Shown here one piece after another: positions 482 through 62,039 of a stretch of 64,000 bases of DNA. Source of the stretch: Eledone cirrhosa (lineage: Eukaryota); NCBI GenBank assembly GCA_964016885.1, contig OZ024742.1:97526001-97590000 (forward strand). Direction: 5' to 3'. Below the pieces are notes generated by a model. It saw nothing but the letters and a program-made list of their open reading frames with translations. It was not told the DNA's origin and did no database searches. Made by a program: the position numbers and the translations under genes. How positions within the stretch are numbered: the stretch's first letter is position 1; the number at the start of each line of letters is the position of its first letter.

Positions 482-3178
482 TTACAGATACATACTCAGA
501 GTAGGCCCATTCACTCGGGCTATTCTTGCTTCTCTCACCCATCTTTCAACAAAATACTGGGAAGAGAGCACTTCCCTCTCTACTCTGATTTTCCTTTTCA
601 AATAAAATTTGAAAAAGTCAATCAGGGCATCACCGAAGAGGTAAGTGCTCGTCTTCAGCCCTTTCAAACGTGTCCACCATACTATCTCTTTCGCCATGGC
701 CACCAGGCAGATAAAAACTGCCTGCCCTTCCCGGCTAAAGGAAGAGGGCGGGGCAATCCTCACGATGGACTCAGATGATAGCCGGATCCGTCCTACACGC
801 GACAGCTGGTGTTCGACATAAACCCACAAGTCAGCAATTTTCGGACACTGGCCGTGCGTGCAGGACGGTTTCGTCGCCCTGCGCGCATCTCGGACATGCC
901 CGGCTGATGGCAGCTCCATGTCTGTAGAGTTTATCCCGAACTGGCAAAGCTCCTCGGTAGCACTGCCAGGCCAGAGATTTCTGGAAGTTGTCCATAGGCC
1001 CCGGCCCGAAAGTTCTTCCGAAGAGATTGGCTAGTTGATTTTCGTCGACGCCTAGAGTTTCCCCAAGTACGTCGTCGCTCTTCCCCTCCACTAATCCTCT
1101 AGAGAACGCCGAGGTGGAGTTTCCACCGATCACATTGCCCGATTGGTCGAGGGCTGTGAGCGCCTGAAAACATTCCAGTCTCCAGGCGCTCCCTCTCGGA
1201 CTTCTCTTGACCCAGGACGGCAACTCCGTCAAGGAAACGAGCTAGGGGAAATACGTGTCTAGCAAACGGCGACCACACCTGATCACCGTCGAGGAAGAGG
1301 TGGAGATGTCGTAGCCTGAGCGCGTGTCTGCGCTTCATCAGCCACGGCATACCCAGCCCCCCATGTAGCGGGTGTTGACAACAGATGGACCGCCTGACCA
1401 TCGGAGCGCGTCCCTTCCCCAAAAAGCGAAAGAGCAAACGCTCCAGCGCAGTCAGGCGGGGCTTAGAGCAAGGTACGACAGTCAGGCGGTAGCAGATGAC
1501 AGACGCGATGTACGCGTTAGCCACCTCCGCTCGACGTTTCAGGGATAGCTTCCTCTCCGCCGATTTCTGGGTGAGAGAAGCCACCCTGCTCGACACCTCG
1601 TCCCAGTTTTTGTCCGTCTGGAGATCCGGACCGAACCAGAGCCCTAGCAATTTAACCGGTCCGTCCGTTCAGCGTCCGACGACGCTGTTGGACGGCATGG
1701 ACCTGCCTCTCCAGGTGCCGAGCTGCAGGCCCACTGACTTTTCCTGGTTGATCATTGCTCCTGTCACCGCTTCGTATTCTCTTAGTGTAGTGCCGATCGC
1801 CTCGATGTGTTTGGCGTTCGACACCACTACGGTGACATCGTCCGCATATGCTGACACGGATCTTCCGCATCCTAATTCGCGCGGGACCCCCCTCAACGTC
1901 TCCAGTTTGTGCAGTAATGCCTCGAGAGTCAATACGTACAAGAGGGACGAAAGGGGACATCCTTGGCGGACCGAGCGCATGATGTTGAACGGTTCCGAAA
2001 GGTGACCGTTCACTCTCACCTCAGAACAGATGTCGCTGTGCATGGCAGCGATCCAGCCTCTGAAGATGGGCCCAAATCCAGCCGCCCTCAGGAATGCCGC
2101 TAGGTAACGATGGTCGACCCTATCGAAAGCTTTCGACTGATCTAAATTGATCAAGGACCCACCCGTGCCAGGTTCCCTAGCTACCCTCTCTACCATGTAT
2201 CGCATGAAGTGGAGGTTGTCGTGGATGGATCTGTCGGGAATGGCGCATGTCTGCGTCTATCCCACCAGACCGCCAACGACAAGCGCCAACCTCTTTGCTA
2301 GCACCTTGGTCAAAATCTTGAACTCTGTGTTTAGCAGAGTTATGGGCCTGAAATTATCTATGTTATCCCCCTTGTTCGGATCCTTTCTCAGCAGTGCCAC
2401 CGCTCCTCGGCTCACAGAGCTGGGAATTCTCCCGTTCTGTTGCCAGTTGCAGTAGACGTCCACCAAGAGGCCTCCGAACAAGTCTGGCATCTGTACGTAA
2501 AGTTCATAGGGCAGACCATCCAAACCAGGCGATTTACGCCTTGTGCAGCCAGTCATTGCCTCCCGTACTTCAGCGGCTGTTATCGGCTTTTCGCAACACT
2601 CCGCCTCAGTGGCCGAGAGCCGCGGCAGTCAGTCGAGGTAGACACTAAAGTCCATCCCTCGACCCGGACCACCGCTGCCCCCGAACAGCTGAGCGAAGTG
2701 TCGCTGAAAAGCTTCACAAATTTTTTCCGGGATTGAGTAGCATGTGCCCGTCGTGGTCCACCAAAGACCGGATCGTGGCTTTGTTGCCACGACGCACCTC
2801 CGCCACTCGGGCCCATTGAACGGCTTTCGTCCCCTCGTGTCTGAGAGCACGCACCCTAGCTCTGACAACGCAGCCTTCGTGCTTTGCATTGAAGAGGCTC
2901 TTGCACCCTCCTCCCCTATCCGCTTATCCCACACAGTCCCAGCGTGCATCTAAGATCCCGTTCCAGTCGCCCACTAACACTAAAGAGCGGGACGTTCCAA
3001 GAAAGGTCTCCAGACGCCGGAAGAAATCAGGCCGCCCTGCTCGTGCTTCGGAGATTCTTGTCTCGCTGATGGCCACTACATCTATGTTTAGTGACCTCAG
3101 GTCGTTGAGCAGGTGGCCCTGCTTCCATGACGACCCCAAGCCACGCGCATTTATGCTGCCTATTCTGAGTGAGGTCAT
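482..3178 (-). pseudogene. Tx1 ORF2 (APE endonuclease + reverse transcriptase), disrupted
   Basis: Split across several ORF-track frames (2924-3250, 2629-2949, 2257-2556, 1669-2205, 1099-1650, 831-1232, 482-919); endonuclease has a 210-bp deletion relative to the copy at 62761-63370. Confidence 0.9.
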
Positions 3179-3212
3179 GTTGAAATGGAGTGGAAAAGAT
3201 GGGAAAGACCAC

Positions 3213-4688
3213 TTACCGTACTTTTCGTAGGGGAAGGATGGTTTCTCCATCTCTTTTCACTTGATCGTCTGATGAAGGGACCGTTGAATCGTCCCTTCGG
3301 CTGGTCGTCGGCTCTTCTATGAGTATGTCCGAATATACTCTCCGGTTGAGAGTCCCTCCTAGGTCTCTCAAATCACCAACTGCGTTGGGGAATTTTGTTT
3401 TAATGTTTGTGTATTGTTTCTGTGCTATTCTTACCAGTCTTATGTTCGTTGGTGTTTTGATTGGTACAGGTATTATGTAGTCGTGCTGTGAAATGTCTGT
3501 GTGTTCAATTATGTAAGTCATTAGTTTCTTGTTGTGTGTATTTATTGCCGTGCATTTGTTTTTCTCCTTTCTCAGGGTCTTCTCGTTGCAGAAGGCCCTG
3601 AGGTGATTCTTCGATCCACAGCGAAAGCATTTCGGGCGTTTGCCCTCAACACTTATGGGCAGTTGAGTGCCGTTATCGAAGTCTTTCACATCCGGGATAG
3701 CTTCGATGCACTCCTGGTTGGTTTGGATTAACATCTCAATGGAGATGCCAACCCAATCTTCTCTTACTTTTTTCTGTACTTGTAGTACAGTTGTTTTGTC
3801 CTCGATTCCGACGAAGACAGACGCGGCCAGCCAAGAAGGGGCCATCCCGGGGGGGACGTGGATCAGTTTGACCCTCACAATTTTTTTCCCGCAGTAGGAG
3901 GGCACCAACACAATTTCCTCGTTCCTTAGGGTCACTAAGGATTGAGCCTTTGCCTCCTGCGGTGTGACAAAAAGCACGTCCACGGTGGCATATTTCTTGC
4001 CTCGGGTGATATGCGTTTTCCGCTGCCACACAGACCCTATGGCTTTTTGTATTTGAGCCTCTGTGGCTCTTTCAACCCTACGGGATTTTGTGCTTACTGT
4101 AAGGTATGTGACCGTACAGTGCTGTTGGGTTTCGAAAAATTTTTCGGCTGCCTTGCAGATTGCTCGGTGTCCGATTTTCGTCACCATCTTCTTTGCTTCC
4201 TGTAATTCCTCATTTGTTATGAGGATTGTTTCCAGGTTCTTTGCGATACCTGCAAACGAGATTGTTTTTTCTTTGCTGCTGTTGTTGTTGTTGTTGTTGT
4301 TGTTGTCGTCAGAGCTGCTGTTACTTTTGTTGTTGCTGCAAGTACTACGACTACTGCCGCCGCTGCTGGTGCTGTGGTTGTTGTCGTTGTTGCTACTGCT
4401 GCTATTGTTGTTGCTGTTGCTGCTAATGCAGTTGTTGTTTATGCTGCTGCTGATGCTGTTGCGGCTGCTACTGTTGTTTTCCTTGTCACTGTTGCTGCTG
4501 CTGTTATTACGGCTGCTACTTCTATTATTCATGACGTCAGACGAATGAAATGGATTTTCGTATTTACCGCACACCTTTTTCGTCGTTGTCGTCGTCGTGG
4601 AGAAATGTTCCATGTTTTGCACGTGATTTTGGAAACTATTTTTCTTTACTGGCGTCGCTTGCGAAAGAGAAGGGAGGGAGAGAGACAA
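3213..4688 (-). CDS. Tx1 ORF1 (gag-like nucleic-acid-binding protein with N/S-rich N-terminus and CCHC zinc knuckle)
   Basis: Open 491-aa frame containing CFRCGSKNHLRAFC; homologous fragments in the second copy at 63496-63962. Confidence 0.8.
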   Translation of the reverse strand: MSLSLPSLSQATPVKKNSFQNHVQNMEHFSTTTTTTKKVCGKYENPFHSSDVMNNRSSSRNNSSSNSDKENNSSSRNSISSSINNNCISSNSNNNSSSSNNDNNHSTSSGGSSRSTCSNNKSNSSSDDNNNNNNNNSSKEKTISFAGIAKNLETILITNEELQEAKKMVTKIGHRAICKAAEKFFETQQHCTVTYLTVSTKSRRVERATEAQIQKAIGSVWQRKTHITRGKKYATVDVLFVTPQEAKAQSLVTLRNEEIVLVPSYCGKKIVRVKLIHVPPGMAPSWLAASVFVGIEDKTTVLQVQKKVREDWVGISIEMLIQTNQECIEAIPDVKDFDNGTQLPISVEGKRPKCFRCGSKNHLRAFCNEKTLRKEKNKCTAINTHNKKLMTYIIEHTDISQHDYIIPVPIKTPTNIRLVRIAQKQYTNIKTKFPNAVGDLRDLGGTLNRRVYSDILIEEPTTSRRDDSTVPSSDDQVKRDGETILPLRKVR

Positions 4689-4789
4689 TCTTTCGCTGCT
4701 GTAGTGACGATTGAGGAAGAAGAAGACGGAATGAGTGGGAGTGACTTGTGAAAATTATTTTCGTAGCCATGTTTTTTTGGGGTTTAAAA

Positions 4790-10943: not shown

Positions 10944-11109
10944 ATTGTTTCTACTTTTAGCACAAGGCCAGCAATTATCCAGTGTATTACTGGTACTTTA
11001 TTTTATCGACCCCATAAGGATGAAAGGCAAAGTTAACCTCGACGGGATTTGAACTCTATGCGTCAAAGCATGGCGTCCGACCGTCTAACGATACTGCCAA
11101 TCGACGCCA
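10944..11109 (-). mobile_element. tRNA-derived SINE, main family of the window
   Basis: ggcg..gattggcagtatcg head, gagttcaaatccc B box, ttgcctttcatcc..ggggtcgataaaataaagtacc core, gtagaaacaat tail. Confidence 0.9.
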
Positions 11110-11124
11110 TATATATATATATAT

Positions 11125-11262
11125 AAATTAAAAAAAACAATGAATAAAAACAAAGAAACAGTTCCTTATATTAAAAAATTCATCATTTTACGATTGTTTC
11201 TAGGATATATATGTGTGTGTTGGTATGTATATTTGTTTTTATTCATTGTTTTTATTAATTTA
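11125..11262 (-). mobile_element. PLE 3'-end fragment with half an HHR plus a short inverted tail piece
   Basis: Reverse complement of 17965-18070. Confidence 0.75.
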
Positions 11263-11520
11263 TCTTGACTCTGCTATCCTGTGTTTTTCATCGAAAAGAT
11301 TTTGAATACATCTTCTCTTTTCATGATATTTGGATTACATTGAGTTCTTCATACGGATTGGACACTACCGTATATTTTGGTAGATTTATCTATATATATA
11401 TATAAGTTGAAAAAAAAAATGAAAACGAAATTTCATTTCTCACTCTTAGTATGGCACTTACTTAAATGTAAGTATGTATGTATACGTACATACATATATG
11501 TATACAGACGTACAGTAGCA

Positions 11521-11560
<40 letters not shown>

Positions 11561-11709
11561 CAGGTACACATACATATATGCACGCATCAGTTTAGCGGAC
11601 GCTTATTATAACGCCCCTTTGTTCGTTTGTAAACAAACTGAACAGCCTGAATTTATGCCATACGGTGTTAAGGCAACCACGTCACCTTTTTGTTCAACAC
11701 TGACACAGG

Positions 11710-11754
11710 AACGATGTACTAGTTTCAAGCTTGTTAGCTATCATCAGCACCGTT
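11710..11754 (-). ncRNA. Type I minimal hammerhead ribozyme (family A, copy 1)
   Basis: Reverse complement reads AACGGTG CTGATGA T AGCT AACA AGCT T GAAAC TA GTA CATCGTT. Confidence 0.8.
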
Positions 11755-12177
11755 TACCCATCTGCCAGATAGTTGAACGTTCGAAAGTATATACTTTCCT
11801 TATGAAAATTAACGGCTGAGCAGCCTAATTTGCATATTGAGTGAGTTAAATCGGTCAGGCATACCGAAAACGATAAGTTGAAAAAAAAAAATGAAAACGA
11901 AATTTCATTTCTGACTCTTAGTATGGCACTTACTTAAATGTAAGTATGTATGTATACGTACATACATATATGTATACAGACGTACAGTAGCATGCATATA
12001 TATATATATATATATACATATATACATACAGGTACACATACATATATGCACGCATCAGTTTAGCGGACGCCTATTATAACGCCGCTTTGTTCGTTTGTAA
12101 ACAAACTGAACAGCCTGAATTTATGCCATACGGTGTTAAGGCAACCACGTCACCTTTTTGTTCAACACTGACACAGG

Positions 12178-12222
12178 AACGATGTACTAGTTTCAAGCTT
12201 GTTAGCTATCATCAGCACCGTT
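12178..12222 (-). ncRNA. Type I minimal hammerhead ribozyme (family A, copy 2)
   Basis: Identical motif, 468 nt from copy 1. Confidence 0.8.
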
Positions 12223-12533
12223 TACCCATCTGCCAGATAGTTGAACGTTCGAAAGTATATACTTTCCTTATGAAAATTAACGGCTGAGCAGCCTAATTTG
12301 CATATTGAGTGAGTTAAATCGGTCAGGCATACCGAAAACGATAAGTTGAAAAAAAAAAATGAAAACGAAATTTCATTTCTCACTCTTAGTATGGCACTTA
12401 CTTTTATCAACTTATCGTTTTCGGTATGCCTGGCCGATTTAACTCACTCAATATGCAAATTAGGCTGCTCAGCCGTTAATTTTCATAAGGAAAGTATATA
12501 CTTTCGAACGTTCAACTATCTGGCAGATGGGTA

Positions 12534-12578
12534 AACGGTGCTGATGATAGCTAACAAGCTTGAAACTAGTACATCGTT
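12534..12578 (+). ncRNA. Type I minimal hammerhead ribozyme (family A, inverted copy)
   Basis: Stem I AACGGTG/CATCGTT, core CTGATGA 12541-12547, GAAAC 12562-12566, palindromic stem III ACTAGT, GUA cleavage predicted after 12571. Confidence 0.8.
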
Positions 12579-12727
12579 CCTGTGTCAGTGTTGAACAAAA
12601 AGGTGACGTGGTTGCCTTAACACCGTATGGCATAAATTCAGGCTGTTCAGTTTGTTTACAAACGAACAAAGCGGCGTTATAATAAGCGTCCGCTAAACTG
12701 ATGCGTGCATATATGTATGTGTACCTG

Positions 12728-12765
<38 letters not shown>

Positions 12766-12799
12766 TGCTACTGTACGTCTGTATACATATATGTATGTT

Positions 12800-13618
12800 T
12801 ATCCCTCCTTTCTGAAACAGTACAGAGAATTACGGAATACCTCGGCCTGGGGACCGTGTCTACATTTTGTGCTTATAAAAAAAATTCGTCATAGATTACC
12901 AGGGGTTTAACTTAATTGGGTGCTTGAGAGTAAAATGTTCAACCCACGAAAGCCAAGACGATAGGGTTAAATAAAAAGGCATTCGACAAACCGAACATGT
13001 ATTTGTTGTGCTATGGTACAATGAGTGCAAGAGTTATAGAGCAGCAAGCATGTGTGACTGCAGTGGTGGAGAAAATGAAGGAATTTAGTTGGAAACTTTT
13101 AAGGTTACCGGCCCTAACGCAACCAAAATGCTAAACAATGCGGTCCCCGTGCAAACATTTGATATCTTTTTCAGTCAAGAATATTCGTGAAATATAAGTA
13201 ATGCATATGCATAGTTTGAAAAAAATCGGTTGGGTACTTCTCGAGTTACAGGCCCTAACGCAACCAAAAAGCATTAAAAAATCGGTTTTTCGCCTAATGC
13301 GGTCCCTGGGGAAAAAAATGAGAACATCTTTTTTTGCTCAAAACACTTTAAACAAAATAATTTAAATTTTGAAGAAATTGCCTGGATTATTGTTCCGTTA
13401 TGCCTCAAAAAAGCCTTTAAATCCTAAAATATGCGAATTTTCGCCTAATGCGGTCTTGAGGGCATGCAAAATTCGAAATAATTTTTGCTCAAAACACTCA
13501 CACGCCCATAAGTATTACATGTGTAAAGTTTGAAAAAAACCGCTTGGATGGTTCTCCAGTTTTAGGGAGACAGACATACATACAGACAGACAGACATTCT
13601 CTGTTTTAGATATATAGA
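12800..13618 (-). mobile_element. Non-autonomous Helitron-like element, 5' portion
   Basis: Minus strand starts TCTATATATCTAAAACAGAGAATGTCTGTCTG (TC start plus CTGT microsatellite); internal subrepeats; second copy of this end at 18590-18721. Confidence 0.6.
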
Positions 13619-13632
13619 TAATATATATAATA

Positions 13633-13660
13633 CTAGCAGAATGGCCCGGCGTTGCTCGGG
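13633..13660 (-). mobile_element. Helitron 3' terminus
   Basis: Minus strand: GC-rich hairpin CCCGAGCAACGCCGGG, 8-nt spacer, CTAG then T; same terminus at 36584-36611. Confidence 0.75.
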
Positions 13661-13694
13661 ATTTTCTCTAGGGTTCTTATATAGAGTTCTTATA

Positions 13695-14180
13695 CATTCA
13701 TGATTTTCAACAAACAGGTGGAGTACTTATCTTTGATAAGTACCAAAAAAGTACTAAACAGAGCTCTGTCAGCTTTATCTCCCCTGTTTGCTGAACATTT
13801 AAAGTAAGTGAGACTGTTACTACTCTAAATCAATAGCGTAACGTCTTCGAAATGCTTTTAATTATGCATACAGTGTATTGCAAAATACACTATATATACA
13901 TTCATATATATATATCGCTATTTCAGAGCACCAATTTTAATCTTCGATTTCTGCTTCACCGGTAAACGCTCTGTATGATCAGTTCCTGATTATTACTAGA
14001 ATTCTATAAGAATCAAACATTCATGATTTTCAGCAAACAGGTGGAGTACTTAGATTTGATAAGTACCAAAAAGTACGAAACAGAGCCCTGTTTGCTGAAA
14101 ATTTTAAATAAGTGAGACTGTCACTACTCTAAAACAATAGCGTAAGGTCTTCGAAATGCTTATAATTAAGCATACAATGT
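13695..14180 (+). repeat. Retrozyme-like direct repeat family B (period 323 nt) with U3-A8 hammerheads
   Basis: 13695-13895 repeated at 14018-14200; TTGATAA GTAC loop GTAC (G/T)AAAC AGAGC.. at 13733 and 14056. Confidence 0.75.
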
Positions 14181-14191
14181 ATTGCAAAATA

Positions 14192-14280
<89 letters not shown>

Positions 14281-14283
<3 letters not shown>

Positions 14284-15541
14284 CGAAGGAAATGTGGTAA
14301 GGAACCAGGTGGACCATAACGCACCAAAGTACTCAATACTAGTAGAGTGGGTAATAGGAACCAGTAAGACCCCGACGGCTGAAATAAAGGAAGCGATAAA
14401 AGAATAATTATTCTTTTATCGCTTCCTTTATTTCCTTCCCCCCATCCCTCCTTAGTCCTTCTACCCCAGCTCCTCTTCTTTGTCGGCGTCTTTTCTCGCC
14501 CACCCGAGGCTGCCCTTTGGCCCCTTGTAGCCTTAGTACCCCCACCCCCTCCCCTAGTCTATGATAGATTTGGCGGACTCCGCTTTTTATAGCAGTTGGT
14601 TTAGACCCCGGATACTTGCCCCCTTTTTCCGACCGCTCCCACTATTTTCCGTGCCTTCTATATTTCTTAGTGGCACTTATGCCTTATTTTCTCGTTTCAG
14701 TATTTCTTTCTTCGCTTTTCTTTTGGGCGGGGTGGATTCTGAATTTATTTTTCCGTATTCTACCTTTACTTCGTACGAACTTTCATGTAGCTTGTCTAAG
14801 ATCTTTTAGAGTTAGCATTAGTATATATTTTTTTCGGGACTCAGAATTATTATCTCGTACTAGTTTACTTTGCTGCACTAGGTGGTTGCTGGCATTGTGC
14901 CCGGGACAGAAACCTTTATTATTTATTTCGTGGTAGTCTCTTTAGTATTTTGGCCCCATTTGTTGACCTGTCACCGTATGATTTACGTACTTATACCTCT
15001 TAAAAGTGTCCTTGCCTATCCGTCCCACCTAGTTCATTTACTTATTTCGTTATTTCTTTATTTCTTTTTTTACTTCTTTCTTTCTTTATTTATTTATTTA
15101 TCAGCCTAACAATAGCTAGAGACTTAGGTCGTAGAACTTGCTTTACTTTTTTCTTTACACTTATTCGCTTTTCTCCACTCTCAGTATTTTTTCTTTCATA
15201 TATATTTTTACCCCTCATTGTTCTACCTACCGTTCCGACTTCCTCCCCCTCCCCCTCCCCAGTATCTTCTTTGACCTCATGCCCAGCTGTAGCTGGCACT
15301 ACCAACGCTTGATTGGGTCTACTCCACCCCCTCCCCTCTTTCTCCTACTGGCAGGTTTAGCCACCATCTCCCCTACTAATTTGCAATCACAGAATTACTA
15401 CTGACTTTTGACAAAAACTTTGACCATATATGGAATTACCCCTTGAGAAGATCGGCTATTTAAATACCAGGATAAATTTTCATTTAGTCCAGAATTAGCC
15501 GTCGAAACGGCTTGAGCTCAGCCGTCGTGGTCTTACTGGTT

Positions 15542-15545
<4 letters not shown>
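14281..15545 (+). mobile_element. Non-coding PLE-like 3' region (family C) with terminal HHR and inverted tail copy at the 5' end
   Basis: 14355-14382 is the reverse complement of 15518-15545; perfect 54-bp palindrome at 14381-14434; related fragment at 18245-18575. Confidence 0.65.
15438..15531 (+). ncRNA. Type I hammerhead ribozyme, U3-A8 variant
   Basis: ACCCC TTGAGAA GATCGGCTA...TAGCCGTC GAAAC GGCT TGAGCTC AGCC GTC GTGGT; the inverted tail copy reads GGGGT, which would pair perfectly with ACCCC. Confidence 0.72.
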
Positions 15546-15584
<39 letters not shown>

Positions 15585-15586
<2 letters not shown>

Positions 15587-16650
15587 GTAGAACTCTGGAA
15601 GGTAATATCCGTAGTGGTAGAGCACTCAGTCCATGGGACGAGTTAGGTAGAAGTGGTTTCACAACAGTTAGTTAACCATACCGAGAAAAATTGTTTCACC
15701 TTAGCGGATCCTCAGCTCGTAATGGACATGGTTATACGGAACAGGAAGGACAACTGTACGAACGCGCATGCGCGGAAACGATCACTTCAGACAGGCAATA
15801 CTAAATTGCGTGTGAGAGGTGTAAGGGAGATAACTGCGAAAGTCAGAAAGTTTCTAGTTGATAAGAAAATTAGGATGTTGTTGTAATTCAATCCGGAGCT
15901 TTGTAGTTATGTAAGAGGTGTTTCCAGACGTGTGGACAACGTGTGAAAAATTCATTTCTCGTGTTTAGGCAATCACTATTGCGTAATCTCTTTAGAATAT
16001 TTATTCGTTCATCAATACATAGTCCACACGACGGATTTCCCCTTGCGTATGGCTTTCAATTGAATGGAGTAGTCTATACTTGAGTCCTTGAGGGACCATA
16101 CCTGGCTCGCGAGTTTCGTGGATGAACGTCTGTCAGGGTACCTAAAGGTCGACTGTTGGTTCAGGAAGCGTTCCTTAAATCGGCCCTCCACCATACCCAC
16201 AGAGGATTTGACCGCCTGTGGTTGATTTGGTCGGTTAGAAGTGACCACAGCGTCATAAACTACAGCGGGTGTGTTGGATTGCTGTTGAAGGGAACAAGCT
16301 TCGGGCTTACAGCAAAAACACCCTGGTAGGGTGTTACTCCTAGGGCTGTTGGTGATGAGGGCCGTCATGTTCTTAGCGCAGGAGTATCCTAATTTTACTT
16401 TGTGTTGGTTAAAAATGATCGGTATTTATGACCTAGGGGAAAGTGTCTATCTAAGAGGGCTAGAAATTTTTTGCCTACATTGGTTTTAACGTTGAGTGAG
16501 AAGGGAGGAGAGAACCAGATAGTTTGTCTATTGTTACGCTTTCTCTTCTTATTGCTGGTGTTGTTAGTGGGAGAGTAAGTGATAGGTTGCGAGAAGCCGC
16601 TGTTAGCTAACACCGTGTTATAGCAGGGTGTCGCCCTGTCAAAGATAAGG
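15585..16650 (-). mobile_element. Penelope-like element, 5'-truncated (linker + GIY-YIG remnant + 3' region with degenerate HHR at 15682-15719)
   Basis: IWFSPPFSLNVKTNVGKKFL, VVYDAVVT...VGMVEGRFKERF...STKLASQVWSLK. Confidence 0.85.
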
Positions 16651-16673
16651 CTATCTTTGACAGGGTGGCACCC

Positions 16674-18072
16674 AATTTCTCCTAATACAATATTTATGAA
16701 TGGTTGTAACTGTAGAATCAAAATAAATTGCCCATTAAAGGGAAATTATCTTATTAATAACATAGTCTATAAATGTGTAATTAGCACTAAGGACTCCACT
16801 CAATCCTATATAGGAGCTACGTCTAACCAATTTAAAGTAAGATTTAATACCCACAAACATAATTTTAAAAATGCCGCATTATCTAATACAACCTCCTTGG
16901 CTGAAGCAATTAATAATATAGAAAGAGGGATATTGATTACAACCTGACCTGGAGCGTGCTCAAAAGGGCCACCTCTTATCAAAATAGCAGATATGAGTGT
17001 AGGTTATGCTCCCAAGAACTATTTCAAAACATGAAATCTAATGATATCCTATTAAATAAGCGACAGCAATTAATTATATCATGCAATCATAGAATTAGAA
17101 AAACCTTCAAATATTATAAACTTAATTAGTATATACCTCACTCTTATATTTTACAAACCATTATGATTAATTAAAAAAAAATGTTAATTCAATTAACTTA
17201 TAATTAGAAATTTACTACAGAGAATTTCATAATTTTATTTCCCTCTTACAGCTCACTTTACCTAAAGTTATCTTTAACCTCACTACGTCTTTTAACCACA
17301 TCCCCTATTTATCACATTTAATACCTAGGATTATTAAATATAATTAATATCTTTAATACTATGGATGTTTAGATAGATACACTGCTTTTTATAAAATTTT
17401 ATCTATTTCAGTTTTTCTATATATATTTTTTATTTTTTTTTATTTTTTACTTCTTTATTTATCACATTCATAAGAATTGATATAATTTTAACTCTGTAAG
17501 TATACCTATCAATTAAGTTAATTTCCTTTTATGTATCTAGGTTCCTTGAAATTTAAATAAGATTAGTATTTCTCACTAACACTCTCATCCCAACAAATTT
17601 CTTTCCCTTCGCTCTTAATAGCATTTTTCAATAACATTAAATTCTCTGGGACTCCTTCACTATCTCCTTGACTTGACCTCATTTTAACCCCTTTCTTTCT
17701 CTTCCCCATTGTATTCTTTTCAAAGCATAAATTTACATTCCTCCACTCCTAGCATCAAGTTCTACTACTGTAATTCTATCAATTTGACCTCTAACTCTTT
17801 TCTATTGGTCCATTCAAAACCTGTTCCCAAACAGACCTTTTATATTAACACTGTGTTTCTTTCAATAAACATACTTCACCATTTCTGAAGATGGCATGTG
17901 TAGATGAAGGTATGTATATCTCCTCTGATAATTTGTAATATTTTTTTACATAGATCTTTAACATGATATACATACCAACACACATATATCCCAGAAACGA
18001 TCGTAAAATGATGACTTTTTCAATATAAGGAACCTGTTCTTTGTTTTTATTTCATTGTTTTTATTAATTTAA
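16674..18072 (+). mobile_element. Penelope-like element, 5'-truncated (GIY-YIG + long 3' UTR + HHR)
   Basis: CNCRIKINCPLKGN..NIVYKC..SYIGATSNQFKVRFNTHK; HHR at 17880-18010. Confidence 0.88.
17880..18010 (+). ncRNA. Type I hammerhead ribozyme with a very long stem II
   Basis: CATTT CTGAAGA TGG...CCA GAAAC GATC GTA AAATG; palindromic stem III ACGATCGT; stem II of about 100 nt with ggtatgtatatc/gatatacatacc pairing. Confidence 0.8.
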
Positions 18073-34747: not shown

Positions 34748-36580
34748 GTGATGGAGTTCTTCAGGATTTCTATATCACTCCAAAATATACCTTTACCATC
34801 TAACGAAGAATATATGAAAAACCTTATTGCACAAACCAACTCCTTCAAAAGAAGACTGCGGTGGGGTGCTTTTCACTTTGAAAATAAAGAGAAAACGGAT
34901 AAGGAAAACACCAACCACAATTTCGAGCATATTTTTAAATCTAGGTAAAATCCTTCTTACAACAAACTCTTGGCTAATTTCGAAAACCAAATTATAAATA
35001 TATTAAGGAATATAAAATTAAAACAAAAACATATAGAGGCCAATAATACCTTAGAGGTCTAAAGGAAAAAATTAATGACATACAGAAAGTAAACAAAATA
35101 GTGAAATGAGACAAAACAAACAATTTATATGGGATTGAAAGAACAAAATATAACGACTTAATTTTAAAAGAATTGAGAAAAAATTACAAAAAGGCCCCAA
35201 GTGAAGATTTATTGGATATTAATAATGATGCATTTGAAATTATCACTAATCTCGGAATAGAGCGGAAAACCGAACCCTTCATACCAAGGCAACCGCGGAT
35301 ACATTTTAAAGACCATAAAAGTAAATTTGAAGAAGACTTACCTGTTAGACTTATTGCACCTTCGAAATCAGATCTCTGAATAATTAGTAAAATCATTATA
35401 GATAGGATTTTACCAACGCTTAAATTTAGGTCAAGGCTAAACCTATGGAAGGGTACTAGTGAAGTCATAGATTGGTTCAATAATATCGAAAATAAGAAAA
35501 ATAATAAGTTCATTCAAATTGTCATAGCGAGTTATTATTCCTCAATAACTCCTAACCTACTAAATAAGGCGTTATCATATGCATATAAGCACACGGATCT
35601 ATCTAGTGATGAGATAAATATCATATTAACGGCAAGGCGAACATTGACAGAATTTAATAATGATCTTTGGACTAGATCCGATAGGAAGAAGAACTTTGAC
35701 ATTACTATGGGCTCGTCTGATTTGGCGCAAGTTACCGATCTTGTGGGAATTTTCATCCTTAACATGATAACTAGAAAACTGCCGGAGATTACCGGTGGTT
35801 TATATAGAAACGACATATTATTTATTGTAGAAAAACATAATAATAGCGAATTAAATGTCCCTTACAAAATAACTGCCTTGACAAGAATCTAGTATATAAA
35901 TGCACCATTAAGACAAATAATAATATATATAACTACATTGGTGCGACTTCATCTGGGTTTAAACTTCGTTGGTACAATCATAAACATTCCTTTTCGAAAC
36001 CAGACAAAAAATGTTCAACTTCACACTCACAACTAATATGGTTTTTGAAGGACAAGAATATTAAATACTCCATCTCTTGGACACGGCTGAAGAATGCCAA
36101 TTCCTATCGGAACGCTTCCATTTCGCCAAATTGCAAACTTTGCAATCTTGAGACTCTATTGATAATTACAAATTATGACAATTTAATTAACAAGGAGAAT
36201 GAATTATTTAGCAGCTGCCAACATAGAACCGGTAAAACATTCCAAGCATTATACAAGTTTCGAAAGAATATTGACAATTAATAATTTTATAAATATATTT
36301 ATAATGTTTGCCTTACCGGAGTAATAATTGTTTCTACTGTTTGGCATAGGGCCAGCAATTACCCAATACATTACTGGTACTTTATTTTATCGACCCCGTA
36401 AGAATGAAAGGCGGGATTTGAACTCAGATCGTAAAGGGACGTAACTATGCTGGAGTAATAATGTATTGATGTTTTATCTATTATAATAATTTCATTATGA
36501 GTCTCTGTATCCTACGTTTTGATCAGGACAATTCAATATTTAACTTGACAATTGTTGATTTATGGTTTAGAAATATCATT
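34748..36580 (+). mobile_element. Penelope-like element, disrupted ORF (RT + GIY-YIG) with internal deletion
   Basis: QNIPLPS..FKRRLRW, PVRLIAPSKS, FDITMGS, GGLYRND (YRDD-like), YIGATSSGFKLRWYNHK, CKLCNLE..LINKENE..CQH; probable 3' tail with HHR at 38770-39290. Confidence 0.88.
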
Positions 36581-39645: not shown

Positions 39646-40482
39646 TTCGTTTCTGAATTTGTTTAGCAAGATTCTTTATCTGAAATCGTGTGTTGAAACC
39701 GATATTGTTATACTTTGGGAGGGTCAGGTTGCCAATAAGAAACACACGCAGCAGTTGCTTTCACTTCAATTTATTATATATTTATAAATTTACAAATCTA
39801 CAAACTTATGAATTTCTGGTTGGTTGGTTGGTTCCACAACCAGATAGTTGTTTATATATAGTCATAGTCCTTTCGTCACACACTCTGTGACCTCTTCAGT
39901 GACTGGGGATTCCTTTCTTTGTTTCTGTGCCTTTCCTTTCTTCCGTCCTACGCCATTTTGTTTGTGTGTGTGTGTTGTGTGCTCAGTTTGCGCATGCGCC
40001 ACATCCGGGTGTCTGTGTGTGTCTGTGTTCATTTATCTATTTGTTTATTTATTTACATGTTGTTGGTTGGTTGTTTGTTTTATGTGTGTGTGTGTTTTCA
40101 TTTTGTCCTTAATTGTAAGTTGTGATGTTGCTGTTCCACTCATATTTTCTATTTAATTTTGGTTGTAATTCTTTTATGCTTACTGCCTCTGTAATTTGCC
40201 TAAACATTGCATCTTTTCTGTGTGTGGATTCTATTTTTATTTCTCTGTTCTCTAATTTACCCTTGTGTTCTATCTTAGCATGTTGGTAGAGTACAGATGA
40301 TTCTTTATTATCTTGAAGGTCTCGCCAGTGTTCATTTATCCGTTCCCCTATACTACGAGCTGTCTCACCTATGTACACTATATTTTTGTTTCTACATTGT
40401 CCTTCAGTACATCTTATGCTATACACTACATTTCTAGTTTTACAGTTAATATGGGGGCTTATCTTACAGGTTATACATTTCT

Positions 40483-41408
40483 ACCCAAGTAGACACCCCA
40501 ACCATCGATTACCTGTACTAGACACAGAGCTCTGGTTAGATACCATTAACAACCAAAAACAAATCCTCCATTCCCATTATGCCAAACCCAAGACTTCCAA
40601 ACATCTGATCCACCGAAACTCGGCCATTTCGGACCATACCAAAATCAACATACTGATTGCGGATTTGGTACGGGTGATGAGAAATGTGTCCCGCATGTGC
40701 AACCCCGAAGAACTAGAGAGACACATACAACACTTCATCCACCGTATGCAGTTCTCTGGCTACAATCAGAGAGATAGAATCAGAGTGTATAGAGGAGCCA
40801 GAACCAAATGGGAAAAAATGGTAAATAATGACATAAATGGGACCTGCCCCTTGTACAGGAGCAAATTTTGGAATAGAATAGAAAGAACTAGGAACAAGGC
40901 CAATAGAATAAACTCATGGTATGATAGCAATAAATACCAGAGTGTAATGTTCATCAATACAATCCCTAGAGGCGAACTAGCCTACAAATTTAGAAGGGCC
41001 CTAAATAAACATAAACTCAATATTAAGATAGTAGAAACACCAGGTACCTCCGTAAAAACACTTATTAGCAAGACATACCCGTTCCAAAGACCCTCATGTA
41101 TAGATAAGAAATGTATAACCTGTAAAATAAGCCCCCATATTAACTGTAAAACTAGAAATGTAGTGTATAGCATAAGATGTACTGAAGGACAATGTAGAAA
41201 CAAAAATATAGTGTACATAGGTGAGACAGCTCGTAGTATAGGGGAACGGATAAATGAACACTGGCGAGACCTTCAAGATAATAAAGAATCATCTGTACTC
41301 TACCAACATGCTAAGATAGAACACAAGGGTAAATTAGAGAACATAGAAATAAAAATAGAATCCACACACAGAAAAGATGCAAGTTTAGGCAAATTACAGA
41401 GGCAGTAA
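40483..41408 (+). CDS. PLE polyprotein C-terminal part (RT thumb, linker, GIY-YIG endonuclease), 5'-truncated with a frameshift at the end
   Basis: Open frame within ORF 40371-41408; the inverted copy preserves the true C-terminus (AMFRQITEAVSIKELQPKLNRKYEW). Confidence 0.8.
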
Positions 41409-59980: not shown

Positions 59981-60082
59981 ATATATACACATACACATAT
60001 ATATATACATATATATACATATATATACATATACACATATATAAATATATACATATACACATATATATATACATATATATAC

Positions 60083-60118
<36 letters not shown>

Positions 60119-60132
60119 GCATATATATATAC

Positions 60133-62039
60133 ATGGGGTTGTTCCGAAGGATTGGCATAGCAGCATCATCGTTAACTGTTATAAGGGTAAAGGAGACGCC
60201 CTAGATAGGAGTAACTATAGAGGCATTAAATTAATCGACCAGGTCATGAAGGTCACGGAAATAGTAATAGCGCAACTAATCAGAGAGAGAATTGACCTAG
60301 ATGAAATGCAGTTCGGGTTTGTGTCAGGCAAAAGTACCACAGACGCTCTTTTCATTGTACGACAACTACAGGAGAAGTACCTAGCTAAAGGTAAACCCCT
60401 CTACTTAGCTTTTGTCAACTTGGAGAAAGCCTTCGACAGAGTCCCCCGCTCCATTATCTGGTGGGCTCTTAGAAAACTAGGCGTTGACGAATGGCTTGTG
60501 AGAGCTATACAAGCCATGTATAAAGAAACAGTCAGCAAGGTTAGATTTAACAACGAATATAGTGAAGAGTTTAGCGTAAAAGTTGGCGTGCATCAGGGCT
60601 CTGTTCTCAGCCCCCTACTATTTATTATTGCCCTTCAGGCTATAACAGAGGAGTTCAAGACCGGCTGCCCATGGGAACTCCTATACGCAGACGACCTGAC
60701 ACTCATAGCGGAATCAATGGCCGAGCTAGAGAAGAAATTCCAAACATGGAAGCACGGCCTAGAATCAAAAGGCCTTAAAATTAACCTGGCTAAGACTAAA
60801 GTTCTAGTTTGTAGGAAAGAAAATAAGGCGGCGGTCCCTTCTGGGAAATGGTCATGCTTGGTGTGTAGGAAAGGCGTAGGTAGAAACTCCATTTTATGTC
60901 CTAAATGCAAAGTATGGGTGCATAAAAGATGTAGTGGGATCACAGGTAAGCTAACTAAGAACATAGATTTTACATGTGGCCGGTGCTCTGGTGCAATAAG
61001 TAGCAGCAAGTGCCCACAAATACTAGCTCTTTCAATTGCGCAGAGGGTTCTATAGAAATAGTGGACAGTTTCCGTTACCTGGGTGATAAAATCAGCAGTG
61101 GGGGAGGGTGCTCTGAAAGTACAGTAGCTAGAGTCAGAACTGGTTGGAAAAAGTTCAGAGAGCTTATACCACTACTAGCTGCTAAAGGGTTCTCCCTAAA
61201 AATGAAAGGCAGGTTGTACGATGCCTGCATACGAACAGCAATGTTGCATGGCAGTGAGACCTGGGCATTGTGTGCAGAGGATATACGCAGACTAGAGAGG
61301 AACGAAGCTTGCATGCTCCGCTGGATGTGTAACAGTAATATACGTGAACGGCAAAGCATAAACGAACTAAGGAAAAAATTAGAAATAAGAGGGATCAGAT
61401 GTTGTTTACTCGAGAGAAGGCTACGTTGGTATGGACACGTGATGCGCATGAAAGTCGATAGCTGTATAACAAAGTGCAGGGCAATAAAGATAGACGGTAG
61501 CCACGGAATAGGCAGACCTAGAAAAACCTGGGACGAGCTGATAAACTCCGACCTCACACACTTACACCTCTCCAAGACAATGTCACTGGACCGAGACCTT
61601 TGGCGGTACTCAGTAACAGAGAAGACCCGCCTTACCTAAATACATAGTAAAACCTACTACAGCCAGTAGGCATCTCTAACAAAATAACCCCCCCCCCCCG
61701 TCCCACCACCCCCACCCCATCCACACCACCCCGTTCTATGTAAAGTTATGTTGGTGCCACACCATCCAGGCCGAAACAAATGAGATCGTGTAGGTGTCAC
61801 GACAAAAAAACACACAGTCCACGCTGTAATGTGGCCATGTAGGCAACACGGTAAAAACCTCCCAGACCCACACTGTAAATGTGGTTGGTGTTAGGAAGGG
61901 CATCCAACTGTAGAAAACCTGCCAGACAGTCCTATGCGAGCAAGACAATCACTCTTGCCTCAAGTGGGACTACCCCCGTCCAAACCCATGCAAGCGTGGA
62001 ACACGGACGTTAAACGTTGATGATGATGATGATGATGAT
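60133..62039 (+). mobile_element. RTE-clade LINE, young, 5'-truncated, one frameshift near 61010-61055
   Basis: NYRGIKL, QFGF, EKAFDRV, GVHQGSVLSP, YADDL, Cys-rich PHD-like insert (CLVC..CPKCKVWVHKRC..CGRC), RTE C-terminus, (GAT)n tail. Confidence 0.95.

What the first reader, a model, noticed from the sequence alone, without database searches (positions are those of the whole stretch)
13695..14180. 323-nt direct repeat carrying a U3-A8 hammerhead variant with an extended stem I
Seen: both copies have TTGATAA in place of CTGANGA, followed by GTAC-loop-GTAC. Copy 2 keeps GAAAC; copy 1 keeps the palindromic stem III ACAGAGCTCTGT, the GUC site and a distal helix (aaacaggtggag/ctcccctgttt). Each copy has a different lesion, but their consensus is a complete ribozyme. 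Established: positions 3 and 8 form a Watson-Crick pair and U3-A8 is a compensatory variant. Standard CUGANGA searches would miss this family.
Basis: partly seen in the sequence, partly recalled or inferred. Interest (0 to 1): 0.72.

Follow-up and report, generated by a model that had tools for sequence, protein, structure and literature searches.

The report
Variant-core hammerhead retrozyme, Penelope footprints
These are two broken copies of a 320-base non-coding repeat with thousands of copies in this animal genome, which carries a predicted self-cutting RNA with an already described base-pair swap and is likely pasted in by Penelope-type jumping-gene enzymes; its relatives show that the swap likely arose once from the standard form.

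Summary
The window has a decayed dimer of a dispersed ~320-nt repeat, and each copy has a different lesion. Intact copies exist: 2,674 genome matches, of which 2,526 are U3-A8, 109 C3-G8 and only 39 mismatched. All stems covary. The 'extended stem I' lines up with the ordinary loop-1/loop-2 type I layout. U3-A8 is already published, in natural hammerheads (PMC3088659) and in about 1,300 Schistosoma Penelope-element motifs (PMC4209133). The element has no ORF. Arms end at two fixed 3' sites next to (TA)n, 28 of 32 two-armed insertions pair the two sites, and 67 of 87 arms read through a cleavage site. It is best read as a non-LTR retrozyme copied by a Penelope-like RT/endonuclease. What is new: trees with C3-G8 relatives show U3-A8 arising once (99/99), on the branch where stem III became a perfect palindrome. 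Cleavage, expression and the partner element are untested or not found. This scan had already noted U3-A8 retrozymes on other DNA, in this and other genomes; no note matched this family by sequence.

The parts
13694..14217 (+). One-armed insertion of the ~320-nt retrozyme: 5'-truncated start, one whole unit, and a second partial unit ending at the short (S) 3' site
   Evidence: 91% identity over 542 nt to a head-to-tail reference, unit positions 245 to 143 of the second next unit; unit length
13704..13797 (+). Hammerhead copy 1, with distal stem I 13704-13718 / 13783-13797 and proximal stem I 13729-13732 / 13771-13774; likely inactive
   Evidence: Alignment to intact L005; pair counts; active fold predicted 9.0 kcal/mol above the minimum-energy fold
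13733..13739 (+). Core positions 3-9 of copy 1 (U3-A8 variant)
13740..13754 (+). Stem II of copy 1 with a 7-nt loop (6 nt in intact copies)
13755..13755 (+). Lesion: catalytic G12 replaced by T
   Evidence: GAAA in 213 of 233 aligned copies
13758..13770 (+). 12-nt palindromic stem III and GUC triplet; predicted cleavage after 13770
   Evidence: GTC in 220 of 233 copies
13880..13942 (+). Region holding the two fixed 3' end sites of the family (S, unit position ~128-145; L, ~166-175), here internal to unit 1; inferred reverse-transcription start sites
   Evidence: End classes S 44, L 43, other 8 of 95 arms; coordinates approximate
14027..14100 (+). Hammerhead copy 2: core 14056-14062, stem II 14063-14076, GAAAC 14077-14081; an 18-nt deletion after 14085 removes the cleavage site; inactive in cis
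   Evidence: partial HH9 match 14057-14092, 16.6 bits
14195..14282 (.). (TA)44 tract at the 3' end; likely the insertion target
   Evidence: 70 of 87 S or L ends are followed by TA repeats

Best explanation
The window holds a decayed two-unit copy of a dispersed, protein-free 320-nt tandem repeat whose intact copies carry a complete type I hammerhead fold with U3-A8, and which is likely a non-LTR retrozyme: multimeric transcripts are predicted to self-cleave at GUC, probably as dimers, to give unit-length RNA that likely circularises and is likely copied into TA microsatellites by a Penelope-like RT/GIY-YIG enzyme supplied in trans. Shown: copy number, intact motif, covariation in all stems and at 3-8, no ORF, two fixed 3' ends, TA targets, S+L pairing in inverted insertions, read-through of cleavage sites, and one branch separating U3-A8 from C3-G8 relatives. 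Inferred: cleavage (about 0.85 for intact copies), Penelope enzymes as mobiliser (about 0.85), a circular rather than uncleaved linear template (about 0.6), dimer dependence (about 0.6), direction C3-G8 to U3-A8 (about 0.9). The two window copies are probably dead on their own, since one lacks G12 and the other the cleavage site.
For: Copy number: 855 and 2,674 pattern matches against 0 in reversed controls. Positions 3 and 8: U-A 2,526, C-G 109, mixed 39 by subtraction. On 82 distinct rows, 95.2% of cells pair, 15 of 30 pairs have double changes, 0 of 500 shuffles reach this, and slid controls pair 33-46%; pair 3-8 is UA 67, CG 13, other 2. Subfamily-level compensations occur in proximal stem I (C-G/U-A), stem II (two pairs), distal stem I and stem III. 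Ends: S 44, L 43, other 8 of 95 arms in 56 loci; 28 of 32 two-armed insertions are S+L, 1 S+S, 0 L+L, 3 with an odd end; 70 of 87 are followed by TA. This matches the published inverted 5'-truncated arm with a 30-40 bp tail on one end and the two internal RT start sites with AT-rich cutting of both strands. 5' ends are spread, 4 of 87 lie at the cleavage site, and 67 of 87 arms cross at least one site. The circular monomer folds at z -7.2 and -6.2 against 60 shuffles. A 66%-identical 310-nt relative has arms of 7 and 2 units with 0 differences within each arm and the same two end classes. With core columns dropped, U3-A8 copies form one side of a 99/99 branch against two C3-G8 groups, and the 310-nt relative (C3-G8) roots the tree outside them.
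Against: No cleavage assay and no RNA data. No autonomous Penelope-like partner sharing these ends was found in the window or 173 loci. Covariation counts reflect a handful of events inherited by many copies, and 3-8 is a single event; alignment A1 was 88 rows chosen by hand from 233 to balance subfamilies. The best Rfam score is 24.5-28.4 bits against a cut-off of 52. The minimum-energy fold of single intact U3-A8 motifs is an inactive one, 2.6-8.4 kcal/mol below the active fold. In this family the sign of one shared template is weak: rare variants shared in 6 of 208 (opposite arms) and 3 of 80 (tandem units) against 70 of 19,035 between loci, and the window's own two units share none. For a purified Penelope-like protein, uncleaved RNA was the main insertion substrate. 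The root rests on one long outgroup branch.
Confidence: 0.8

Rival explanations
1. Same element and same Penelope-type enzyme, but the template is an uncleaved linear multimer from arrays or dimers; the hammerhead only frees the transcript from upstream host RNA, and no circle is needed.
For: Hammerhead mutants did not affect insertion in vitro and no RNA reads ended at the cut (PMC11167929). Long arrays exist: L147 with 18 and L160/L172 with at least 9 stem III matches. Arms are short, up to about 750 nt. Intact single motifs are predicted to misfold.
Against: Array units differ by about 14% (4 units compared), while tandem units inside arms differ by a median 4.6%, less than copies of one subfamily at different loci (6.8%). 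The 310-nt relative has identical units within arms. Circular RNA is documented for coral, mussel and axolotl retrozymes.
Confidence: 0.25
2. The repeats are only truncated pseudo-LTRs of an autonomous Penelope-like element, not a self-contained non-autonomous family.
For: Published U3-A8 motifs are in pseudo-LTRs of Cercyon elements and mostly occur singly. Ends are of Penelope type. A splice-donor-like word follows the ribozyme at 13804 (seen in sequence; function untested).
Against: Units join head to tail with no ORF, and 12 of 87 arms cross two cleavage sites. No ORF of 200 aa or more continues from an element in L001-L059. Seven subfamilies amplified in this ORF-less form.
Confidence: 0.07
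3. A satellite spread at the DNA level (unequal crossover or carriage by a Helitron-like element), with a relic hammerhead no longer under selection.
For: Two old tandem arrays. A Helitron-like end lies just upstream at 13632 (seen in sequence; label recalled). Individual copies decay in the core as neutral copies would (13 of 100).
Against: Dispersed copies with two fixed 3' ends, variable 5' ends and inversions. Flanks differ between loci. Compensatory changes fixed in successive subfamilies, none at U4, G5, A6, A9, G12, A13 or A14.
Confidence: 0.04

Closest known systems
Metazoan non-LTR retrozymes (Cervera and de la Pena 2020, PMC7229834, passages and part 3 of 6 read; Li, Clavereau and Pollet 2026, bioRxiv 10.64898/2026.07.22.740005, parts 1-2 of 5 read)
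   Same: Tandem ~300-nt non-coding units with one type I hammerhead each, a strongly self-paired monomer, monomers/dimers dispersed plus a few long arrays, and a proposed origin from Penelope-like elements.
   Different: The core is U3-A8 in about 94% of intact copies, and stem III is a 12-nt palindrome rather than 1-2 bp. Penelope-type two-site ends are visible here; the parts read do not describe them. Circular RNA is not shown here.
U3-A8 minimal hammerheads of Schistosoma Cercyon Penelope-like elements (Cervera and de la Pena 2014, PMC4209133, parts 1-2 of 4 read)
   Same: Same 3-8 swap, over a thousand genomic copies, palindromic stem III region, inverted neighbouring copies, link to Penelope-like elements.
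   Different: Those are minimal motifs (long helix II, short helix I, extra nucleotide before stem II) in ORF-bearing elements. This one has a 4-bp stem II, a 6-nt loop and a looped long stem I like canonical type I, in an ORF-less repeat.
Rfam Hammerhead_HH9 (RF02275) and canonical tertiary-stabilised type I hammerheads
   Same: The alignment covers model positions 1-77 with matching loop II, core, GUC and the internal loop of stem I (E 2.6e-4). Internally looped helix I extensions are described for type I motifs (PMC6155905, passages).
   Different: 24.5-28.4 bits, below the gathering score of 52; shorter proximal stem I, longer stem III, U3-A8.
Poseidon element PAc of Anolis (Frangieh et al. 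2024, PMC11167929, parts 1-2 of 4 read) and Penelope-like insertion structure (Craig et al. 2021, bioRxiv 10.1101/2021.04.23.441226, passages)
   Same: Two internal RT start sites downstream of the hammerhead giving an optional 30-40 bp tail, AT-rich targets, an inverted 5'-truncated arm.
   Different: PAc encodes its own RT-endonuclease. This element encodes nothing, and its partner was not identified.

Membership tests
Type I hammerhead ribozyme | Conserved core (U4 G5 A6, A9, G12 A13 A14, A15.1-U16.1) and NUH triplet | tested here: met
   Intact copies: GAAA in 213 and GTC in 220 of 233 aligned copies. Not met by either window copy.
Type I hammerhead ribozyme | Watson-Crick pair between positions 3 and 8 | tested here: met
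   U-A 2,526, C-G 109, mixed 39 of 2,674; UA 67, CG 13, other 2 of 82 rows.
Type I hammerhead ribozyme | Three helices supported by covariation | tested here: met
   95.2% of cells paired, 15 of 30 pairs with double changes, 0 of 500 shuffles; few independent events.
Type I hammerhead ribozyme | Loop 1 / loop 2 tertiary contact | tested here: inconclusive
   Loop II and the stem I internal loop align with the HH9 consensus; the contact itself was not modelled.
Type I hammerhead ribozyme | Site-specific self-cleavage | not testable with these tools
   No assay. U3-A8 is reported active in vitro in other hammerheads (PMC3088659 passage).
Rfam RF02275 Hammerhead_HH9 | Score at or above the gathering cut-off of 52 bits | tested here: not met
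   24.5 bits and 28.4 bits; no hit at E<=0.05 for 3 of 4 loci.
Non-LTR retrozyme | Tandem units of ~170-400 nt, each with a type I hammerhead | tested here: met
   311-328 nt between cleavage sites; arrays of up to 18 units.
Non-LTR retrozyme | No protein-coding capacity | tested here: met
   No ORF of 120 aa or more over 13694-14165; head-to-tail junctions without ORF.
Non-LTR retrozyme | Highly self-paired monomer | tested here: met
   Circular fold z -7.2 and -6.2 for two real monomers against 60 shuffles each.
Non-LTR retrozyme | Expressed as unit-length circular RNA | not testable with these tools
   No run on record as RNA was offered.
Mobilised by Penelope-like elements | Two fixed 3' ends (30-40 bp tail on one end), inverted 5'-truncated arm, AT-rich target | tested here: met
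   S 44, L 43, other 8 of 95 arms; 28 of 32 two-armed insertions S+L; 70 of 87 next to TA.
Mobilised by Penelope-like elements | Sequence shared with the pseudo-LTR of an autonomous partner | tested here: inconclusive
   Only other ORF-less retrozyme families matched in the window and 173 loci; no genome-wide search was possible.
Autonomous Penelope-like element | ORF with RT and GIY-YIG endonuclease between pseudo-LTRs | tested here: not met
   None between or co-linear with units.

The most novel reading that the evidence does not exclude
The family is a natural record of a catalytic-core base-pair switch being selected. On one branch the retrozyme changed C3-G8 to U3-A8, lengthened loop II and made stem III a perfect palindrome (predicted self-duplex about -20 kcal/mol, against -11 to -12 in the C3-G8 relatives). 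The new palindrome can also pair with the core, and U3 weakens that misfold. The switch would thus have turned a monomer-competent ribozyme into a dimer-gated one that cuts multimers but spares the circle, and this lineage then took over, with 2,526 intact U3-A8 copies against 109 of the nearest C3-G8 subfamily.
Probability: 0.2. Interest if true: 0.62.

Novelty: new member of a known kind. Interest (0 to 1): 0.38.

Why it matters
The class (non-LTR retrozyme), the core variant (U3-A8) and the Penelope-type footprint are each published, so this is not a new kind of system. Its use is as a test set. Closely related natural hammerheads with C3-G8 and U3-A8 lie on a resolved tree, so one can measure what a core pair swap does in a canonical, tertiary-stabilised ribozyme and whether dimer-gated cleavage favours spread. 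It also adds end-structure evidence for the proposed but unproven link between animal retrozymes and Penelope-like enzymes, and shows that CUGANGA descriptors and Rfam cut-offs undercount such families.

Tried and rejected
Expression: no RNA holder listed. Contigs of three runs of unknown kind were laid; they show that the family and its relatives are present but give no strand, ends or level, so they were not used as evidence. Rfam scan of 11000-17000: only weak HH9 hits and microsatellite-driven miRNA hits. My own descriptor scan missed both window copies because of their lesions. A sister C3-G8 family seemed absent at first (1 of 9 hits) because that pattern fixed N7 as T; freeing it found 109. 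A midpoint-rooted tree suggested that C3-G8 was a reversion; this was dropped once outgroups H and J were found. A pile-up of 5' ends at the cleavage site, expected from a cleaved linear template, was not seen (4 of 87, about 2 expected). The high shared-variant figure for tandem units (153 of 555) came from 15 of 84 pairs and did not hold in the stricter recount (3 of 80). The idea that palindromy first arose with U3-A8 was rejected, since the C3-G8 relatives already have imperfect palindromes. A search for C3-G8 relatives with a 6-nt loop II gave 3 hits and no family. The autonomous partner was not found. Literature searches: 'hammerhead'+'U3-A8' gave 1 paper, 'C3U'+'G8A' gave 0, octopus+hammerhead ribozyme+transposable gave 3 hits, 2 listed, neither on such a family by title or abstract. 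The kinetic paper on 3-8 exchanges that I recalled was not held, so no rate for U3-A8 is given. Supplements of PMC4209133, PMC7229834 and PMC3088659 and the bioRxiv supplements were not read and may hold further U3-A8 examples.

Full report
Observation. Two copies start at 13694 and 14017, 323 nt apart. Compared with an intact genomic copy, copy 1 has lost G12 at 13755, has a stem I mismatch and one extra loop base, but keeps the stem III palindrome and GUC. Copy 2 keeps GAAAC but has an 18-nt deletion after 14085 that removes the cleavage site. The insertion runs from 13694 to about 14217 and ends in a (TA)44 tract. Rfam gave only a partial weak HH9 match on copy 2.

The family. The window lies in a 3.0-Gb genome. 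A DNA search had 2,114 candidates, 40 of them scored, and the best copies were 94-96% identical on many contigs. An exact core pattern matched 855 times against 0 for its reversed control, and a 3' anchor matched 2,902 times. With an anchor on stem II only, 87 of the 100 listed copies have TTGATAA, 97 have U3 and 99 have A8 (counted from the listing). The unit is about 320 nt, joined head to tail without an ORF. I labelled seven subfamilies, A-G, by rough diagnostic motifs; a few rows were mislabelled, as the trees show. Copies lie a median 3-6% from their subfamily majority.

Is the hammerhead real? An intact copy aligns over the whole HH9 model, with matching loop II and stem I internal loop, at 24.5 bits (E 2.6e-4), under the cut-off of 52. 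The 'extended stem I' is therefore the ordinary looped type I layout (PMC6155905 passages), plus a 15-bp distal helix. On 88 rows chosen by hand from 233 (array copies and truncated copies left out), 95.2% of cells pair, 15 of 30 pairs show double changes, none of 500 shuffles reaches this, and slid controls pair 33-46%. These cells count copies, not events. The independent events are subfamily-level swaps in proximal stem I, two stem II pairs, four distal pairs, stem III and the 3-8 pair. No column of U4, G5, A6, A9, G12, A13 or A14 differs among subfamily majorities, but with about 62 of 265 columns varying that alone is not significant.

The 3-8 pair. One pattern with positions 3 and 8 free matched 2,674 times: 2,526 U3-A8, 109 C3-G8 and, by subtraction, 39 mixed. 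One of the 100 listed C3-G8 hits is an unrelated motif. So both paired states amplified and neither mismatch did. Two more distant relatives turned up. Group H (about 75% identical, 20 loci read) has a C3-G8 core, in 19 of 20 copies, and a 5-nt loop II like subfamily E. Group J (310 nt, about 66% identical) has C3-G8 and a different hammerhead. With core columns dropped, the 34 rows of the U3-A8 subfamilies are one side of a 99/99 branch against E and H, and J roots the tree on the H side (one long branch). U3-A8 is thus most likely derived once. On the same branch N7 changed, loop II gained a base and the stem III palindrome became perfect. Predicted stem III self-duplex energy is -10.6 (H) and -12.2 (E) against -16.9 to -20.1 kcal/mol in most U3-A8 subfamilies, with one D variant at -9.0. 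The gap between the active and the minimum-energy fold is 0.5 kcal/mol in E, 4.1 in H and 2.6-8.4 in U3-A8 copies, and 5.5 in a natural C3-A8 copy of subfamily A against 2.9 for U3. These are nearest-neighbour predictions without tertiary contacts. They suggest dimer dependence but do not show it.

How it moves. I fetched 60 loci from the first 100 hits of a 3' anchor on contig C1, chosen without regard to the ribozyme, and dropped two arrays and two duplicates. Of 95 arms, 44 end at site S (unit position 128-145, blurred by an internal TA run), 43 at site L (166-175) and 8 elsewhere; 70 of 87 S or L ends are followed by TA repeats. Of 32 two-armed inverted insertions, 28 pair S with L. 5' ends are spread over the unit, only 4 of 87 at the cleavage site, and 67 of 87 arms cross at least one site, 12 of them two. 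This matches Penelope-like elements: an inverted truncated arm with a 30-40 bp tail on one end, and two internal RT start sites with cutting and extension of both strands at AT-rich DNA. Inferred mechanism: the enzyme cuts (TA)n, primes from both DNA ends at the two start sites, and the two cDNAs join. Read-through means the template was a circle or an uncleaved multimer. A circle is favoured by the J relative (7 and 2 units with no differences within each arm), by the stable circular fold and by published circles in coral, mussel and axolotl. It is only weakly supported within this older family, and uncleaved RNA was the main substrate in vitro for PAc.

What is known. Natural U3-A8 covariation was reported in 2011 and described there as already proven active in vitro (PMC3088659, passages), and in about 1,300 minimal motifs of Schistosoma Penelope-like elements in 2014 (PMC4209133). 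Non-LTR retrozymes and their proposed Penelope origin are published. My searches found no paper on this family or on a C3-G8 to U3-A8 switch traced within one retrozyme lineage; supplements were not read. Earlier notes of this scan describe other U3-A8 retrozymes and two-armed insertions in this and other genomes; none matched this family by sequence or place.

Verdict. A real, decayed copy of a new member of a known kind. The ribozyme fold and the U3-A8 pair are well supported by comparative evidence; activity, expression and the partner enzyme are untested. The added value is the resolved natural switch of a core pair. Interest 0.38.

Noticed in passing
window 11402-12800: A second, unrelated retrozyme-like family: 468-bp units with a canonical minimal hammerhead (CTGATGA at 12541 +, 12215 -, 11747 -; 6-nt palindromic stem III), arranged as two opposed arms.
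   Followed up: partly
window 22418 +, 20554 -, 33384 +, 33133 -, 39182 +: Further minimal-hammerhead candidates, two as inverted pairs; 39182 lies upstream of a Penelope-like ORF remnant.
   Followed up: no
window 16012-16425 -, 35380-36281 +, 40109-41408: Broken RT / GIY-YIG-like ORFs of Penelope-like type, recognised by eye from translations; no link to this family was found.
   Followed up: partly
window 14283-15540: Another repeat bounded by (TA)n on both sides; its first 100 nt and last 55 nt recur in many fetched loci, often close together, suggesting another TA-targeting element.
   Followed up: partly
window 13076-13690: Helitron-like non-autonomous ends: a microsatellite-bearing end near 13570-13620 and an ACTAG plus hairpin end at 13632, the latter also seen in L054. 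The Helitron label is recalled, not tested.
   Followed up: no
L168:1921-5357 and L103:1711-3125: A young 310-nt relative (66% identical, same end region, different C3-G8 hammerhead) with identical tandem units in two opposed arms.
   Followed up: partly
L147/L171 and L160/L172: Two long head-to-tail arrays of the 320-nt unit (18 and at least 9 stem III matches); 4 units of the first differ by 14%.
   Followed up: partly
window 13801-13809 and 13921-13926: A splice-donor-like GTAAGT 34 nt after the cleavage site and an acceptor-like TTTCAG about 120 nt further, inside the tail region; Penelope-like elements are known to keep introns. Splicing is untested.
   Followed up: no
L131:208-810: A deleted derivative lacking the hammerhead, repeated in tandem as ~165-nt units and ending at site L, which hints that the end region alone may suffice for copying.
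   Followed up: no
window 482-4754 -, 60045-61639 +: Remnants of LINE-type retrotransposon ORFs, recognised by eye.
   Followed up: no
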